From IMG/VR virus record IMGVR_UViG_3300025251_000021, positions 1 to 44,080 of that record: a stretch of DNA of 44,080 bases. One strand, 5' to 3'. The notes under the pieces were generated by a model, which was not told where the DNA came from, ran no database searches, and worked only from the letters and a program-made list of their open reading frames with translations. A program made the translations under genes and the position numbers. The DNA is from a virus (Duplodnaviria > Caudoviricetes). Position 1 is the first letter of the stretch. Each line of letters starts with the position of its first letter. Positions 3,870 to 14,793 of this stretch are shown here, piece by piece.

Positions 3870-3905
3870 ATTATAACACTCCCTTAGTGTATTTGTTTAT
3901 AAAAT

Positions 3906-4033
3906 TTTTTGACAGGTAAACGCCAACCGTCTATGTTTAAATAACTCTTATCAATTTAACTACAATAACATAAATATAGAGTAAAAGGTGTCCTTCTACA
4001 CCGTTAAATTAAATTATTTAACCCTGTCAAAAA
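3906..4033 (-). ncRNA. candidate structured RNA or leader (nested stems)
   Basis: TTTTTGACAGG/CCTGTCAAAAA, TTAAATAATT/AGTTATTTAA, TAATTTAAC/GTTAAATTG, GGTGT/ACACC; G-U pairs favour the minus strand. Confidence 0.5.
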
Positions 4034-4063
4034 TCTTTTTTGGCAAAACTCTTCGCCAAAAAG

Positions 4064-4092
4064 AATTTACTAATTTTCTTTGGTTATGTCAA
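4064..4092 (-). promoter_or_regulatory. sigma70-type promoter
   Basis: TTGACA-17-TAAATT with an A-rich upstream tract. Confidence 0.6.
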
Positions 4093-4123
4093 CCTTTTTT
4101 TACATTTTTTTTATTTTTTTTCC

Positions 4124-4149
4124 TCTCTATCCGGCATCTCTATCCGGCA
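4124..4149 (+). repeat. 13-bp tandem direct repeat TCTCTATCCGGCA x2
   Basis: Copies at 4124-4136 and 4137-4149. Confidence 0.85.
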
Positions 4150-4184
4150 ATTACACCCCATTTCTTGATCAAAAAATTTTTAGA

Positions 4185-4232
4185 GAAAAGTGTGAGCACA
4201 GAGATAAATTGCTTTATCTCTACACTCGCACT
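4185..4232 (-). terminator. long hairpin (GCAA tetraloop) with short U-tract after the amidoligase gene
   Basis: AGTGCGAGTGTAGAGATAAA-GCAA-TTTATCTCTGTGCTCACACT-TTTC, with three G-U pairs on the minus strand. Confidence 0.6.
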
Positions 4233-4243
4233 ATTCTATTTAG

Positions 4244-6517
4244 TTATTCTTCGTTTTCAAGCTCGTATCTATTAGCTTCAGTGTTCCATAACATATCGTC
4301 TTCATTAAGATATCTATGATATTCACTCTGATTTGTATTAAAGGTAGTATCTAAAGATGTTCTAGAGAGCCCATCAACTACACTATCAATTGTAGCTTCT
4401 TCAAATACAACTTGACTAGGTTTAACAGATATCTCTTCTTCAACTTCATCTGAATTCACCCTATACTTAAAGGCTTTATTCAGATGACACTTTTTACTAA
4501 ATTCAGACATCTTATAGGTTTTTCCTATAATATCCTTACTTAATAAATTCCCTTTTACTAATAAGTTTGAAAGCAAGGAATTTTCTATATGTTTGTCAGA
4601 TATCTGTATCTTCATTGGATAGAAATTAACACTACTTTGACCAAGAGGACTACTCATAGCATCTCTACTACTTATAGTGTCTATTTCAAAGTCCTTATTT
4701 CTAAACTTAAGAGCATCTCTATCCCAATAGACAACCCCAGTATTGTTGAAAAAACAATTTGTATAGTGTTGTGTAGGTGTTTGAGAATTTCTTAGTCTGA
4801 AATCTAACATACCTGTATAGAACATTCTTGTTCTCATTGGAACTTCCATAACATCAAACAGATTATGGATATCTATACAAGGATTATAATATGACTTGTA
4901 GTTTGTTCTAAGAGTATTAAATACTTCTTCATTTTCTACAAGTTTCTTCATATCCTCATTTAAAATATCTGTATGTTCAATATTCAATGGAATATCTAAC
5001 AACTCAGACACAGTCCACTTAATGCAATCATCTCCTCTCAAAGAGTAGAGAGTATCTCCCATCTCTTTGCACTTGTCAAAGATACAACCCCAAAGGATTG
5101 CCCAGTGTTTTATCTTGTTTGCATTAAGAGTTCCTTGATGATATCTCAACTCTATACTCCCAGTCTTATTACTACAGAACGAAGGGTGCATATTTAGAGA
5201 GTGATATCTCTTGCCTGAACAGTGTCTATCTCTATCATAACGATGTGTATCATACCAAAACTCAAGAAATGTTTCTTTATCTGTTATGTTTGTGAATGAT
5301 TCCAAAGTTTGAGACATAGGCCTACTGTAGGTTCCTTTAATTCTCGAAGGTGCTAACCAAGAGTATAGATGAGGTTCAAACATCTTAGTGAATAGAGATA
5401 ATACTGCTCTATGATACCAATCAAAGTCTCTACTATCTATATGTAGATGAAGCCCTGTTCTGCTTGTCACAAAACTATCAAAGTATTGTTTCAGAGCATC
5501 TGTCACAATACGAGAATCATCTAGTAGATATGAGCCTTGTCTAGGATCTAGAACTATCTCTCCACTTGTTATCTCATCATCATCTATACCATTTATGCTA
5601 CCATCAGAGACAATTTTGAACCCTAAATCACTAGCAGTTAGAGAACCATTTCTGTCTACAAACTCTTGTAGATGCATAGGTAAGTTTTCTTCACACACTC
5701 TCTTTTGAAGAGAGCGACAAAGAGCACTTTCTATTTCTCCATAGCTACTAGCATAGTTATGCACTTCTATCTCTAACCCCATAAATCGTCTTGAAGTATT
5801 TTCTTCAAAATTAGGTTTCTCTTTAAATTTCTTAAAAGAAACCCTCCCTTGAGGTTCAGACATATAAGACTGATATTGAGATTCTTGATTAAGTGCATAA
5901 TTAAGAACTTCTACACTATCAATTACTTCCCAATTATCACAAGCCTCTTCTGATGAGTGACGATAACAGTTATGACAATGATAGACTTCATTATAGTCTT
6001 CCCAGATAGCATCTTCTTGTAACATTTCTATTCCACAATGATCACAGTGAGCATACTGTTCATAGTAGCAATCTCCACAAAATGAGTCGCCATCGGCATT
6101 AGTAGCCACATTATCTATATGAGTAGTGCACTCACAACCTTCACAGCTAGTATAGTTTTCTTCAAAACATTTACTACAGACTGCTCTTGCTCGACTATTA
6201 ACATCATAGTCTAATTCAGGGTAGTCTTTTAACTGCATATGACAATCATCGCAGATTTCAAGGTTGTCTATGTCTTCTATCAACTCTATAAGTTCTCCGA
6301 GTGTAGCCTGAGATATAGCCCAAAATCTAAAAGTAGATTCTATTGCTACATCGTAGTTGGCATAATAACTAGCTAAGCCACTATCAAGGAAGTCTTCTTG
6401 AGGTATCTCTGAGAGATTCTCATACTTCTCTTTTTTCTGAAAGAAATCAGTAACTAAGTAATTATATCTATGCTTTACATTGCTCTGTAAAGAACTTATA
6501 TCTATTGTTGGATTCAT
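4244..6517 (-). CDS. putative amidoligase (COOH-NH2 ligase, Amidoligase_2-like) with N-terminal CxxC repeats
   Basis: GLEIEV, SDGSI, GEIV, TGLHLHI, RYHSLN, IELRYHQGTLN motifs; six CxxC pairs in the N-terminal part. Confidence 0.85.
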   Translation of the reverse strand: MNPTIDISSLQSNVKHRYNYLVTDFFQKKEKYENLSEIPQEDFLDSGLASYYANYDVAIESTFRFWAISQATLGELIELIEDIDNLEICDDCHMQLKDYPELDYDVNSRARAVCSKCFEENYTSCEGCECTTHIDNVATNADGDSFCGDCYYEQYAHCDHCGIEMLQEDAIWEDYNEVYHCHNCYRHSSEEACDNWEVIDSVEVLNYALNQESQYQSYMSEPQGRVSFKKFKEKPNFEENTSRRFMGLEIEVHNYASSYGEIESALCRSLQKRVCEENLPMHLQEFVDRNGSLTASDLGFKIVSDGSINGIDDDEITSGEIVLDPRQGSYLLDDSRIVTDALKQYFDSFVTSRTGLHLHIDSRDFDWYHRAVLSLFTKMFEPHLYSWLAPSRIKGTYSRPMSQTLESFTNITDKETFLEFWYDTHRYDRDRHCSGKRYHSLNMHPSFCSNKTGSIELRYHQGTLNANKIKHWAILWGCIFDKCKEMGDTLYSLRGDDCIKWTVSELLDIPLNIEHTDILNEDMKKLVENEEVFNTLRTNYKSYYNPCIDIHNLFDVMEVPMRTRMFYTGMLDFRLRNSQTPTQHYTNCFFNNTGVVYWDRDALKFRNKDFEIDTISSRDAMSSPLGQSSVNFYPMKIQISDKHIENSLLSNLLVKGNLLSKDIIGKTYKMSEFSKKCHLNKAFKYRVNSDEVEEEISVKPSQVVFEEATIDSVVDGLSRTSLDTTFNTNQSEYHRYLNEDDMLWNTEANRYELENEE

Positions 6518-7698
6518 AGTAGTCCTCCTTCGATTTTGTCTTCTAGTTCTACTTCTTTTTCTAGATTAAGTGCTTGTTTATAACAATCACAATCTTCAAA
6601 ATCCATATCAACACCACAATATCTACAATAGACTGGAGAATTGATTTTTAACTTTATAAATTCCTCTTCTGAGAGAACTTTCTTATCTACATTTATGTAG
6701 AACCAGTCCTCCTGTAGAGTGTCATAAAACCAATTTTTGTCATCGTAGTCCTGATAGTATCTTTCTTGTAATAGGTGACTATCTATAATACTTCTTTCTC
6801 CATAATCATCATCTGAAACATTATTAGTCTCCCAAATACTACCTTGTTGTGAATATTGAGTCGTAGAACCGTTACCATACTTAGATGCAAGAACTTTACT
6901 GTTATAGTTTTTTGTGTAACCACTATAATAGTTAACTCCACAACCGAAGTTATAGTATGTTTGACTCTCGAAGTTAAAATCAGACTTATCGACATTCGTC
7001 TTGATTTCATCGAATTTTAGAATATTAAAGGCATAGAGCCTATTACTTTCTAATTCGATAGTTATAGAGTTAAATACACCTGCTTGAAGCAGTGCTTTCT
7101 CTATATATTCATCTTTAGAAGCATAGAATAGAATTCTTGCTTCTTTCCAATAAGCAACACTGAGAGGCCTATTAGACTCCCTACATAAGTAGAGAGTATT
7201 ATAGGTATCTTTGACAAAACTTAAAGCAAAGTCTCCTTTTAGATAGTCTACTGCTTCTTGTATATTTTCTGTTGAGTCAATAGCCTTAAATATTAACTGG
7301 CTATCTACTTCACAAACTTTATCAAGTTTAGTTTTTAGACTATGCATATTAGTTAGGCACCCATTATGAGCACCTATTGTTCTACCAACTTTAAATGGGT
7401 GAGCATTCTTAGTAGAAATATCTCCCTGAGTAGCAAATCTTGTATGTCCAAGATATATATGCCTGTCAGGTAAACATTTCATAGAGTTTGCCCACTCTCT
7501 AGAAGTGACGAACTTAGAAGACTCTAGGAGGGATTTATGTATTTGGCTTTCAACTTCTCCAATTACTGCAAGTCCAGAGCTATCTTGTCCTCTATCCTCG
7601 CTATAAATAGCAAGTTCTCTGAGAACTCTCTGTGCTTTCTTAAGCTGTCTCTTGCTCTGTTGGTTAGGTTGTTTAGCCATACCATATATTCCACACAT
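6514..7698 (-). CDS. class II (Ntn) glutamine amidotransferase
   Basis: MCGIYG, RGQDSSG, GHTRFATQG, NAHPF, HNG, VDS motifs; AAGGAG RBS. Confidence 0.9.
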   Translation of the reverse strand: MCGIYGMAKQPNQQSKRQLKKAQRVLRELAIYSEDRGQDSSGLAVIGEVESQIHKSLLESSKFVTSREWANSMKCLPDRHIYLGHTRFATQGDISTKNAHPFKVGRTIGAHNGCLTNMHSLKTKLDKVCEVDSQLIFKAIDSTENIQEAVDYLKGDFALSFVKDTYNTLYLCRESNRPLSVAYWKEARILFYASKDEYIEKALLQAGVFNSITIELESNRLYAFNILKFDEIKTNVDKSDFNFESQTYYNFGCGVNYYSGYTKNYNSKVLASKYGNGSTTQYSQQGSIWETNNVSDDDYGERSIIDSHLLQERYYQDYDDKNWFYDTLQEDWFYINVDKKVLSEEEFIKLKINSPVYCRYCGVDMDFEDCDCYKQALNLEKEVELEDKIEGGLL

Positions 7699-7735
7699 AA
7701 GTTTTTCTCCTTATAGTTCTTGTTACATTATTGTT

Positions 7736-7813
7736 AGGTATATTACCTAAGACACCCTATCTAATAGACAGGGTGTTTCTGTCTGCTATACCTTGCAGAC
7801 TTCATCAGTTAGT
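7736..7813 (-). ncRNA. type I hammerhead ribozyme with loop II pseudoknot
   Basis: CTAA-CTGATGA-A-GTCTGC-AAGGTATA-GCAGAC-A-GAAAC-ACCCTGTC-TATTA-GATAGGGT-GTC^TTAG; loop II AGGTATA is complementary to downstream TATACCT. Confidence 0.85.
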
Positions 7814-8057
7814 TATCAGTTTGTCCTAAATAAGTTAGAACATCAACAACTGTTTTAGAGAAAGTGTCATAGTCTAACTGGATATTGAATAAAGTAAAAC
7901 CTACTTGTGCTTTTAGTTTCTTCTTTATTTTCATAGGAACTCCAACTTCTCTATACATCATATATATAGAACTTTTGAGTTCTTTATAATCCTTATTAAC
8001 TCTCTTGAACAACTTCTCTATTCTTCTTCTTTCAAGTATTACTTCTCTTTCGTTCAT
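7809..8057 (-). CDS. hypothetical protein
   Basis: AGGAG RBS; its stop codon forms hammerhead stem I. Confidence 0.65.
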   Translation of the reverse strand: MNEREVILERRRIEKLFKRVNKDYKELKSSIYMMYREVGVPMKIKKKLKAQVGFTLFNIQLDYDTFSKTVVDVLTYLGQTDN

Positions 8058-9411: not shown

Positions 9412-9522
9412 TTATCTCTTATTCCTTTGTAGAGTTAGTTTCTCATTTTGGATATAAAACCCATTCAATATAGTCATTTTTGATTAAAAAACAAAATTAT
9501 TTAAAAATGAATGCTTATGTAT

Positions 9523-9567
9523 TTCTAATCGCCTAAGTTTTGATAGTTCTCTATTAGGCGATTAGAA
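9523..9567. repeat. 14-bp perfect inverted repeat (hairpin unit 0)
   Basis: TTCTAATCGCCTAA-17nt-TTAGGCGATTAGAA. Confidence 0.8.
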
Positions 9568-9735
9568 TTAAAATACCTCTCTATCTTGCGTTTTAAAGCG
9601 TTTTAGGTGTTTTTTTGAGATAACGCCAATTTTGCAGAATGATTTTATTTATTTGTATTTATCTTATTTATTTGTATTCTTTATAGTTCGGCTTATCTGT
9701 TAATGATAAGGGACAAAATAAAAGGAATTAATCTA

Positions 9736-14226: not shown

Positions 14227-14392
14227 TAGATGTTATATATGCAATAGAAGACTTAAAAAAACAGGTGTTTATATTTTAAGTCCAAAACAGAGAGATGTCA
14301 CAGCTATAAAATGTATTTATTGTTTGACTATATATGATCCAAATTTTGAGATTATTACTTTAGGAATTCCACATATAGCTGGGTATGCATAA
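14165..14392 (+). CDS. small Zn-ribbon protein
   Basis: CYIC...CIYC; start uncertain. Confidence 0.55.
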   Translation: MQFKNRKTKNYLKLKSLQRNNRCYICNRRLKKTGVYILSPKQRDVTAIKCIYCLTIYDPNFEIITLGIPHIAGYA

Positions 14393-14793
14393 TGAGACTA
14401 GCAGTATACGGAACATTAAGAAGAGGTTCTCCCTACACTGGGAAAGTAGAGGGATTTAGTTTAGTGTTTCCTGGTGAACTTTCTTTTCCTGCTTTAATAA
14501 AAAATAAAAAAGGAGAAGGAGCTGTGGTTGAAATGATGGATGTTAATAATGAAGACTTATCATACTTTGATAGTTATGAGAATATTGATGGCGGTTTATA
14601 TATAAGAACTACAACTGATGTTAATCTAGATAATGGAAAAACGGAAAAAGCTTGGATATATGTAGCAGGGCCGTTACTTTGGGAAAACTCAAAAACATTT
14701 ACAGAGGTTCCTGACGGGGATTGGTTGTCTTCTAAAACACTAATGATGATGAATAGAGTTGATGACTATGAAAGACAAGCCTCAGAATTTTAA
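14392..14793 (+). CDS. gamma-glutamylcyclotransferase (AIG2/GGACT-like)
   Basis: AVYGTLRRG, D.YE....LY.R, AWIY, GDW motifs. Confidence 0.85.
   Translation: MRLAVYGTLRRGSPYTGKVEGFSLVFPGELSFPALIKNKKGEGAVVEMMDVNNEDLSYFDSYENIDGGLYIRTTTDVNLDNGKTEKAWIYVAGPLLWENSKTFTEVPDGDWLSSKTLMMMNRVDDYERQASEF

What the first reader, a model, noticed from the sequence alone, without database searches (positions are those of the whole stretch)
7736..7813. Pseudoknotted hammerhead ribozyme in the leader of the amidotransferase-amidoligase operon
Seen: the minus strand carries the full type I hammerhead core. Stem I is CUAA/UUAG, followed by CUGAUGA, stem II GUCUGC/GCAGAC, GAAA, stem III CACCCUGUC/GAUAGGGUG and a GUC cleavage triplet (cut predicted between 7751 and 7750). 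Loop II (AGGUAUA) pairs 7/7 with UAUACCU just 3' of stem I. The same 3' segment can instead fold UUAGGUA-AUA-UACCUAA, which excludes both stem I and the pseudoknot. The upstream gene's stop codon lies in stem I, and an atypical A-A opposition sits at the base of stem II. Known: hammerheads occur in phages, and loop-tail pseudoknots stabilise natural forms; the unrelated glmS ribozyme also sits before a class II amidotransferase. Inference: cleavage releases a 5'-OH, hairpin-capped mRNA starting about 50 nt before the GATase ATG. This could be a conformation- or translation-dependent switch controlling the ligase operon.
Basis: partly seen in the sequence, partly recalled or inferred. Interest (0 to 1): 0.85.

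Follow-up and report, generated by a model that had tools for sequence, protein, structure and literature searches.

The report
Variant hammerhead ribozyme before phage amidotransferase
An RNA with the fold of a self-cutting hammerhead ribozyme, carrying one unusual mismatch, is conserved between two genes of uncultured phages and likely cuts the message so that the downstream enzyme genes get their own hairpin-capped mRNA; phage hammerheads are well known, but relatives fill the same slot with other hammerhead types or with a different folded RNA that Rfam does not list.

Summary
The element is real. A complete type I hammerhead lies at 7812-7747 (minus strand), with a 7-bp loop II/tail pseudoknot and a competing tail hairpin; a strict descriptor found 0 hits in 300 shuffles. 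Three diverged orthologs keep it, with 5 compensatory pairs (all from one sequence); stem I, pseudoknot and hairpin never vary, so covariation does not test them. The mismatch at the base of stem II is conserved (A-A in 3 of 4, A-G in 1). It is not an operon leader but sits between an 82-aa gene and the amidotransferase. Of 160 related loci, 21 carry a hammerhead at this junction, in three architectures, always beside that 82-aa gene; a large sister clade has a different structured leader with an anti-Shine-Dalgarno-like loop and no Rfam match. Most likely role: mRNA processing, probably slowed; a translation-gated switch remains possible; glmS-like sensing is unsupported. Cleavage is untested. 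Phage hammerheads with this pseudoknot were described in 2011, and this scan noted hammerheads in amidoligase/amidotransferase operons of three other genomes. New variant of a known kind.

The parts
7809..8057 (-). 82-aa upstream ORF of unknown function; its stop codon (7811-7809) is part of stem I
   Evidence: no Pfam, PHROG or Atlas hit; 18 homologous clusters; present in exactly the 21 hammerhead loci of 160
7809..7812 (-). stem I, 5' strand (4 bp; 5 in L089)
   Evidence: invariant in 4 of 4 orthologs
7802..7808 (-). hammerhead core C3-A9
   Evidence: only the free N7 position varies (L089)
7801..7801 (-). A opposite 7780: non-canonical 10.1 position, or an extra A after A9
   Evidence: A in 4 of 4 orthologs
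7781..7800 (-). stem II (6 bp) and 8-nt loop II (7794-7787)
   Evidence: 3 compensatory pairs and 1 G-C to G-U change
7780..7780 (-). purine opposite 7801 (position 11.1)
   Evidence: A in window, L089, L090; G in L002
7776..7779 (-). core G12-A15.1
   Evidence: invariant in 4 of 4
7752..7776 (-). stem III hairpin, including A15.1-U16.1
   Evidence: 2 compensatory pairs and 1 one-sided change; loop length differs in L090
7750..7753 (-). GUC triplet and predicted cut between 7751 and 7750
   Evidence: hammerhead consensus; H17 is U in L089; cleavage untested
7747..7750 (-). stem I, 3' strand; also the first 4 nt of the competing hairpin
7736..7742 (-). pseudoknot partner of loop II (7 bp; 6 in L090)
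   Evidence: 6 pairs invariant in 4 of 4, no covariation
7734..7750 (-). competing 7-bp hairpin; would cap the 3' cleavage product with no unpaired 5' base
   Evidence: invariant arms, the one variable tail base lies in its loop
7707..7712 (-). Shine-Dalgarno-like sequence 8 nt before the ATG, inside a weak predicted hairpin
   Evidence: sequence, folding
6514..7698 (-). class II glutamine amidotransferase, 394 aa, starting Met-Cys-Gly
   Evidence: Pfam GATase_6 E 4e-14; PHROG 4736 E 5e-41
4244..6517 (-). amidoligase, 757 aa, start overlapping the amidotransferase stop
   Evidence: Pfam Amidoligase_2 E 4e-17; terminator-like hairpin at 4227-4194

Best explanation
It is a conserved type I hammerhead with a loop II/3'-tail pseudoknot and a purine-purine mismatch at the base of stem II, which likely cuts the phage's polycistronic transcript right after the 82-aa gene and would release the amidotransferase-amidoligase message with a 5'-hydroxyl end that is predicted to refold into a terminal hairpin. 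Steps: (1) shown in sequence: core, three helices, pseudoknot and rival hairpin; (2) shown by comparison: the fold is kept through compensatory changes, and hammerheads of three architectures occupy this junction; (3) inferred: stem I plus pseudoknot form during transcription and support cleavage, at a reduced or fractional rate because of the mismatch, the 4-bp stem I and the rival hairpin; (4) inferred: after the cut the weak stem I lets go, the tail folds into the 7-bp hairpin, which aids product release and shields the new 5' end, much as in the engineered RiboJ insulator; (5) inferred: the downstream cistrons thereby get a half-life and translation rate separate from the upstream genes.
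For: One strict hit in the window, none in 300 shuffles. Four distinct orthologs down to 62% amidotransferase identity: 100 of 100 cells paired, 5 compensatory pairs, core invariant but for the free positions N7 and H17. 21 of 160 related loci (11 of 89 distinct leaders) have a hammerhead here: 4 pseudoknotted type I, 5 canonical type I, 2 type II with pseudoknot, cutting 30-85 nt before the ATG, which points to selection for a cut at this place and not for one fold. 3' product begins with a hairpin in 4 of 4 orthologs. Processing of phage transcripts by intergenic hammerheads and pseudoknot support are published (PMC3088659); an extra A after A9 costs only a moderate rate loss in a viroid hammerhead (PMC3705267); loss of the 10.1 N7 contact costs about 30-fold (PMC6961537); RiboJ raises mRNA about twofold, possibly through its terminal hairpin (PMC6206723).
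Against: No cleavage or expression data. All 5 compensatory changes come from one sequence (L090). Stem I, pseudoknot and hairpin are invariant, so none is tested by covariation. Pseudoknot-free folding puts 99.8% of full-length molecules in the rival hairpin and stem I at only about 15% even before the hairpin can form. Perreault et al. state that U-U supports more activity than any other 10.1-11.1 mispair and rejected such hits by default. The 5' hairpin is absent from the predicted products of the five canonical type I relatives, so capping is not general. The three architectures need not be three independent gains (quick tree only).
Confidence: 0.6

Rival explanations
1. A translation-gated, bistable hammerhead: a ribosome terminating on the 82-aa gene covers the 5' strand of stem I and the core, the tail snaps into the rival hairpin and locks the ribozyme off; when the upstream gene is not translated, stem I and the pseudoknot form and the RNA cuts. 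Amidotransferase-amidoligase output would then report on translation of the upstream gene.
For: Stop codon inside or within 2 nt of the first helix strand in the window and 9 of 9 relatives examined, across three architectures. The 82-aa gene marks exactly the 21 hammerhead loci of 160. Energy gap between the folds (5.9 kcal/mol at 37 C) is about the pseudoknot helix taken as a duplex (-6.2), at four temperatures. The hairpin's 5' arm repeats part of loop II, and its arms are invariant in 4 of 4. The sister clade has a riboswitch-like leader in the same slot.
Against: Phage intergenic spaces are tight, so abutting a stop codon is the default. Gene and ribozyme co-occur along one part of the tree, in effect a single loss event. 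Canonical type I relatives lack the rival hairpin. The A-rich stretch after the hairpin is equally invariant with no pairing role, so invariance alone is weak. Duplex energy is only a rough stand-in for a pseudoknot.
Confidence: 0.2
2. A decayed or nearly inactive hammerhead whose hairpins are kept for another purpose (mRNA stability, a protein-binding site), the mismatch and the rival hairpin having switched catalysis off.
For: Mispair next to the core; 4-bp stem I; the minimum-energy fold is non-catalytic in 4 of 4 orthologs; the variant was not found outside this lineage by four pattern scans.
Against: All strictly conserved core bases are unchanged in 4 of 4 while changes fall on the free positions N7 and H17 and on helices with compensation; the mismatch itself is conserved as A-purine; a dead core would be expected to drift at 62% protein identity.
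Confidence: 0.13
3. A metabolite-dependent ribozyme, like glmS, that senses glutamine, glutamate or an amino sugar and feeds back on the amidotransferase.
For: Position before a class II amidotransferase; conserved odd mismatch at the core; the sister clade's structured leader suggests this gene is under RNA-level control.
Against: No conserved extra domain; unrelated architectures fill the slot; glmS is a different fold and Rfam finds no glmS match; the review read names glmS as the only well-understood bacterial case (PMC6765202).
Confidence: 0.05
4. A chance look-alike.
For: Bare core pattern is common by chance; no Rfam match.
Against: 0 of 300 shuffles at the strict descriptor; covariation; canonical hammerheads at the same junction in relatives.
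Confidence: 0.02

Closest known systems
Pseudoknot-stabilised hammerheads in phage and prophage intergenic regions (Perreault et al. 2011, PMC3088659), in particular the type I element listed for Pseudomonas phages LUZ24 and PaP3
   Same: Type I topology, consensus core, position between co-oriented phage genes. The element at the like position in Bruynoghevirus phiIBB-PAA2 has a loop II that can pair 5 bp with the tail just after stem I (read), and lies 7-8 kb upstream of an amidoligase-amidotransferase cluster on the same strand. About 40% of that paper's hammerheads use a pseudoknot; a halovirus variant sits 13 nt before a start codon.
   Different: Here 10.1-11.1 is A-A or A-G, which that paper's filter rejects and its text does not report (only U-U); the ribozyme sits directly before the amidotransferase; the tail can form a rival hairpin that uses the stem I strand; single copy in the genome.
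Chrysanthemum chlorotic mottle viroid plus-strand hammerhead with an extra A between A9 and G10.1 (reviewed in PMC3705267)
   Same: An extra A after A9 followed by a G-C pair; active with a moderate rate loss. One-sided insertions after A9 also occur in related loci (L004, L006, L026, L092, L094).
   Different: Here there is also an extra purine between C11.1 and G12, giving a 1x1 loop; DNA phage, not viroid.
PK hammerhead with pistol-like topology (Zhan et al. 2024, PMC11300833)
   Same: Hammerhead core with a pseudoknot involving loop II.
   Different: There the pseudoknot replaces helix II, pairs with a separate stem-loop IV joined to helix I, and G10.1-C11.1 is a standard pair; here helix II is a full 6-bp covarying stem and the partner is a 3' tail.
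RiboJ insulator (engineered sTRSV-derived ribozyme plus hairpin; PMC6206723)
   Same: Self-cleavage removes upstream RNA and leaves a hairpin-capped leader before a ribosome-binding site.
   Different: Natural; the hairpin is made from the ribozyme's own stem I strand and pseudoknot partner, so it competes with the active fold.
glmS ribozyme
   Same: Self-cleaving RNA in front of a class II amidotransferase gene.
   Different: Different fold and chemistry; needs GlcN6P as cofactor; no Rfam match here; this amidotransferase has no sugar-isomerase domain hit and is paired with an amidoligase.

Membership tests
Hammerhead ribozyme, type I | Core C3-U4-G5-A6-N7-G8-A9, G12-A13-A14, A15.1-U16.1, H17 | tested here: met
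   invariant in 4 of 4 orthologs except N7 and H17
Hammerhead ribozyme, type I | Three helices round the core, II and III closed by loops, I open | tested here: met
   covariation for II and III only, stem I (4 bp) invariant
Hammerhead ribozyme, type I | Paired 10.1-11.1 next to the core (filter of Perreault 2011; exceptions admitted there when active) | tested here: not met
   A-A in 3 of 4, A-G in 1 of 4. Hence filed as a variant, not as a canonical member
Hammerhead ribozyme, type I | [quoted passage not shown] | tested here: inconclusive
   7-bp complementarity, 0.08% by chance, 6 pairs kept in 4 of 4 but never varying; competes with a hairpin
Hammerhead ribozyme, type I | Site-specific self-cleavage 3' of H17 | not testable with these tools
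   needs in vitro transcription or 5'-end mapping
Rfam hammerhead families | Score at or above the gathering threshold | tested here: not met
   canonical relatives were missed too
PK (pistol-like) hammerhead | Helix II replaced by a pseudoknot with stem-loop IV; standard G10.1-C11.1 closing a minimal stem | tested here: not met
   full covarying helix II; partner is the 3' tail; definition from PMC11300833
glmS ribozyme | glmS fold (Rfam model) | tested here: not met
   no match at E up to 5 in 7500-8000
glmS ribozyme | GlcN6P-dependent cleavage | not testable with these tools
   needs an assay

The most novel reading that the evidence does not exclude
A natural conformational switch built from a hammerhead: ribosome termination on the 82-aa gene flips the RNA between a pseudoknotted active fold, with a tolerated A-purine pair at 10.1-11.1, and a hairpin-locked off state. 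The junction before the phage amidotransferase is a regulatory slot that has held three hammerhead architectures and, in a large sister clade, an uncatalogued riboswitch-like three-way junction that can hide the ribosome-binding site.
Probability: 0.2. Interest if true: 0.78.

Novelty: new variant of a known kind. Interest (0 to 1): 0.47.

Why it matters
What bacterial and phage self-cleaving ribozymes are for is still largely open (PMC6765202, section read). This locus gives a natural allelic series at one gene junction: pseudoknotted type I with a core-adjacent mismatch, canonical type I, type II, and a non-hammerhead leader. That makes the question 'constant processing or regulated cut' directly testable with short transcripts and one reporter. 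If the A-purine variant cuts well, standard hammerhead filters, which reject any mispair at 10.1-11.1, are missing a class of active ribozymes. The sister clade's leader is a separate riboswitch candidate in front of a glutamine-using enzyme.

Tried and rejected
Rfam: no hammerhead or other meaningful match in the window, in 20 related loci at gathering or 12 at E up to 3. Pattern scans for the A-purine variant elsewhere: 14 and 50 viral loci, of which only the 2 of this lineage in each scan form the helices; 120 genome loci (51 of 64 parts scanned) and 120 viral loci (4 of 64 parts) gave 2 weak passes that look like chance; the patterns were narrow, so this shows rarity, not absence. A covariance model from the 4 orthologs found no second copy in the window and only L004, L052 and L060 weakly among 60 loci. 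Promoter scan: nothing in the intergenic space on the minus strand, and sites overall are near chance (35 against 27.7). RNA runs: no RNA holder listed; no evidence either way. A search with its alignment found one new viral locus (L475) that ends before the junction. The careful tree did not finish; a quick tree of 88 rows was used, one leader dropped for a protein under 200 aa. PK (pistol-like) hammerhead and glmS were considered and rejected. For the sister clade's leader, pairing of its second loop with the bases before the start codon shows no covariation (both sides nearly invariant) and is unproven. Literature: no paper held both 'self-cleaving ribozyme' and 'amidoligase' or ribozyme, phage, amidotransferase, upstream and hammerhead; two searches listed no A-A report in titles or abstract starts. 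Weinberg et al. 2015 (PMC4509812) and Nelson and Uhlenbeck 2008 (PMC2271363) are not held, so the list of ribozyme-associated genes and the mutational data for 10.1-11.1 were not seen. Perreault Dataset S1 is cut in the library and its text search found no sequence terms; Figures 5, S6, S7 were not visible. Three supplementary files of Fremin et al. 2023 (PMC10690425), two of them large archives, were not searched; either element could be in them.

Full report
OBSERVATION. Stem I is 7812-7809 with 7750-7747, the core C3-A9 is 7808-7802, stem II is 7800-7795 with 7786-7781 round an 8-nt loop, G12-A15.1 is 7779-7776, stem III is 7776-7766 with 7762-7752, and the triplet GUC ends at 7751. A7801 faces A7780. 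Seven loop II bases are complementary to 7742-7736, and 7750-7744 can instead pair with 7740-7734. The bare core pattern is no better than chance in this AT-rich genome (16 of 100 shuffles reach the count). With helices required there is one hit in the window, none in 300 shuffles at stems of 4, 6 and 6 bp and one in 300 at 4, 4 and 4. The 78-mer folds at z = -4.6, and a 7-bp match to loop II occurs in 0.08% of random 16-mers. Rfam has no match but also missed canonical hammerheads in L019, L026, L052 and L095, L140, L145.

SETTING. The window is a 44-kb phage contig (P22-like portal, SU10-type capsid). Many relatives come from Tara records, so a marine habitat is likely; the host is unknown, and the 25 listed matches among GenBank phage records are 24-32% identical. 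The element lies between an 82-aa ORF (8057-7809) and a class II amidotransferase (7698-6514) followed by an amidoligase (6517-4244) and a terminator-like hairpin. Three more co-oriented ORFs lie upstream and no promoter-like site falls in the gap on that strand, so the element is most likely intercistronic. There is one copy in the genome.

CONSERVATION. Searches with the amidotransferase gave 160 loci with 89 distinct leaders. Four distinct leaders carry this exact architecture: the window's own (4 loci), L002/L088 (88% protein identity), L089 (78%) and L090 (62%). In their alignment all 100 cells of the proposed structure pair, with 5 compensatory pairs (3 in stem II, 2 in stem III) and 2 one-sided changes; 0 of 500 shuffles reach this. 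All 5 compensatory changes come from L090. Core changes fall only on N7 and H17. Stem I, the 6 central pseudoknot pairs and the 7 hairpin pairs never vary, so covariation cannot choose between them. The mismatch is kept: A-A in three, A-G in one.

THE SLOT. Five more distinct leaders (L019, L140, L052, L060, L026) have a type I hammerhead with 6-7 bp of stem I, cutting 30-34 nt before the ATG, and two (L092, L094) have a type II hammerhead whose loop I can pair with the 3' tail (the pseudoknot read by eye). That is 21 of 160 loci, 11 of 89 leaders. A profile of the 82-aa protein hits exactly these 21 loci and none of the other 139, of which 135 have over 400 nt upstream (the profile was built from 10 of these proteins). 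In the window and 9 of 9 relatives examined its stop codon lies in, or within 2 nt of, the first helix strand. On a quick tree of 88 amidotransferases the hammerhead lineages branch outside a well supported clade of 67 rows (support 98; midpoint root, long branches flagged), so gene and ribozyme were probably lost together once, and the co-occurrence is not 21 independent events. In that clade 57 distinct leaders carry a UCCUUU motif, mostly in a hairpin loop inside a long-stemmed junction; in 30 of them aligned, 12 of 15 predicted outer-stem pairs show compensatory change. The loop is complementary to the Shine-Dalgarno region by 4-12 bp. Rfam has no match for it.

THE MISMATCH. It can be read as A10.1-A11.1 or as an extra A after A9 plus an extra purine before G12. 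Perreault et al. report only U-U at this position, say it is the best-tolerated mispair, and rejected such hits unless active. An extra A after A9 costs a moderate rate loss in a viroid hammerhead (PMC3705267, passage), and one-sided insertions at that place occur in L004, L006, L026, L092 and L094. G10.1 N7 helps bind the active-site metal and its removal costs about 30-fold (PMC6961537, passages); adenine keeps an N7 (inference). From recalled knowledge, not from a call, A-A and G-A can form isosteric sheared pairs, which would extend the A9-G12 pair and explain the A-to-G change in L002. Four pattern scans did not find the variant outside this lineage (two of them partial). I expect a slower ribozyme that leans on its pseudoknot.

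MECHANISM. Without pseudoknots the fold is dominated by the tail hairpin (99.8%), and stem I reaches about 15% before the hairpin can form; enforcing stem I costs 5.9 kcal/mol at 37 C, about what the pseudoknot helix gives as a duplex (-6.2). So the two folds may be near balance, though this is crude. The simplest reading (0.6): a fraction of transcripts folds actively during synthesis and cuts; the 3' product then refolds into a hairpin with no unpaired 5' base (4 of 4 orthologs), which helps release and would shield the end, as proposed for RiboJ (PMC6206723, passages). Interchangeable architectures argue that the cut matters, not a ligand pocket. The switch reading (0.2) rests on the stop-codon position, the energy balance and the sister clade's leader; against it, canonical relatives lack the hairpin and tight packing explains the stop. 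A relic (0.13) is disfavoured by the intact core. glmS-like sensing (0.05) has no positive support. What the enzymes make was not determined; a gamma-glutamyl cyclotransferase gene lies elsewhere in the window.

WHAT IS KNOWN. Perreault et al. 2011 (PMC3088659; parts 1-6 of 8 read, Dataset S1 in part) describe pseudoknots in about 40% of hammerheads of all three types, hammerheads flanking prophage genes, and a halovirus variant 13 nt before a start codon. They list type I elements in LUZ24 and PaP3; the element at the like position in phiIBB-PAA2 has the same loop II/tail pairing potential and lies 7-8 kb upstream of an amidoligase-amidotransferase cluster. The PK hammerhead of Zhan et al. 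(parts 1-2 of 6 read) is a different topology. A 2019 review (section 13 and passages) calls the bacterial roles largely elusive, and Weinberg et al. 2017 (passages) note that such ribozymes lie near certain gene classes; the list itself was not available. Two full-text searches found no paper tying a hammerhead to these genes. Fremin et al. 2023 list one candidate RNA before amidoligase genes and none before an amidotransferase in the files searched; three files were not searched. Earlier notes of this scan record hammerheads in amidoligase or amidotransferase operons of three other genomes and several core variants; these are unchecked leads, but they fit a recurrent association.

VERDICT. 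Real, conserved, probably active: a new variant of a known kind. What lifts it above an ordinary phage hammerhead is the conserved A-purine mismatch, the built-in rival hairpin, and the natural series of RNAs at one junction. Interest 0.47.

Noticed in passing
L009, L011, L012, L014, L023, L034, L042, L097, L131 and others, within about 200 nt before the amidotransferase ATG (e.g. L012:2862-2955): A different conserved leader in 57 of 89 distinct leaders: long covarying outer stem (12 of 15 pairs with compensatory change in 30 aligned), mostly a three-way junction, with a loop holding UCCUUU that is complementary to the Shine-Dalgarno region; a second loop could pair with the bases before the start codon (no covariation). 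No Rfam match. Riboswitch or operator candidate, possibly more novel than the hammerhead.
   Followed up: partly
L092-L095, just after the stop of the 82-aa homolog: Type II hammerheads with a one-base insertion after A9 and a loop I/tail pseudoknot in the same slot, cutting 84-85 nt before the ATG.
   Followed up: partly
L004:1501-1547, 2257-2301, 2738-2787 (and L006): An unrelated phage with three type I hammerheads in 1.3 kb, each just before a ribosome-binding site; two have an extra A after A9.
   Followed up: no
window 7809-8057 (-): 82-aa basic protein with no family hit, found only beside hammerheads among 160 loci; could be an RNA- or DNA-binding regulator; structure prediction did not finish.
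   Followed up: partly
window 7733-7721 (-): A-rich stretch after the hairpin is invariant over about 13 nt in all 4 orthologs with no obvious pairing role; it could dock in a minor groove or aid ribosome loading.
   Followed up: no
window 7713-7696 (-): Weak predicted hairpin covering part of the Shine-Dalgarno sequence and the start codon, predicted in all 4 orthologs.
   Followed up: no
L018, L092, L094, L098, L120, L136, about 30 nt before the ATG: A shared stretch with a TTGACA hexamer close to the ribosome-binding site, in both hammerhead and non-hammerhead leaders; too close to be a -35 box for this gene.
   Followed up: no
window 14392-14793 (+): Gamma-glutamyl cyclotransferase gene on the opposite strand, between the putative terminase genes, apart from the amidotransferase-amidoligase pair it neighbours in cultured phages.
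   Followed up: no
window 3870-4243 and 9412-9702: Long non-coding gaps with several hairpins, promoter-like sites and, at 9640-9670, short A-rich repeats; likely terminators and the divergent promoter region.
   Followed up: no
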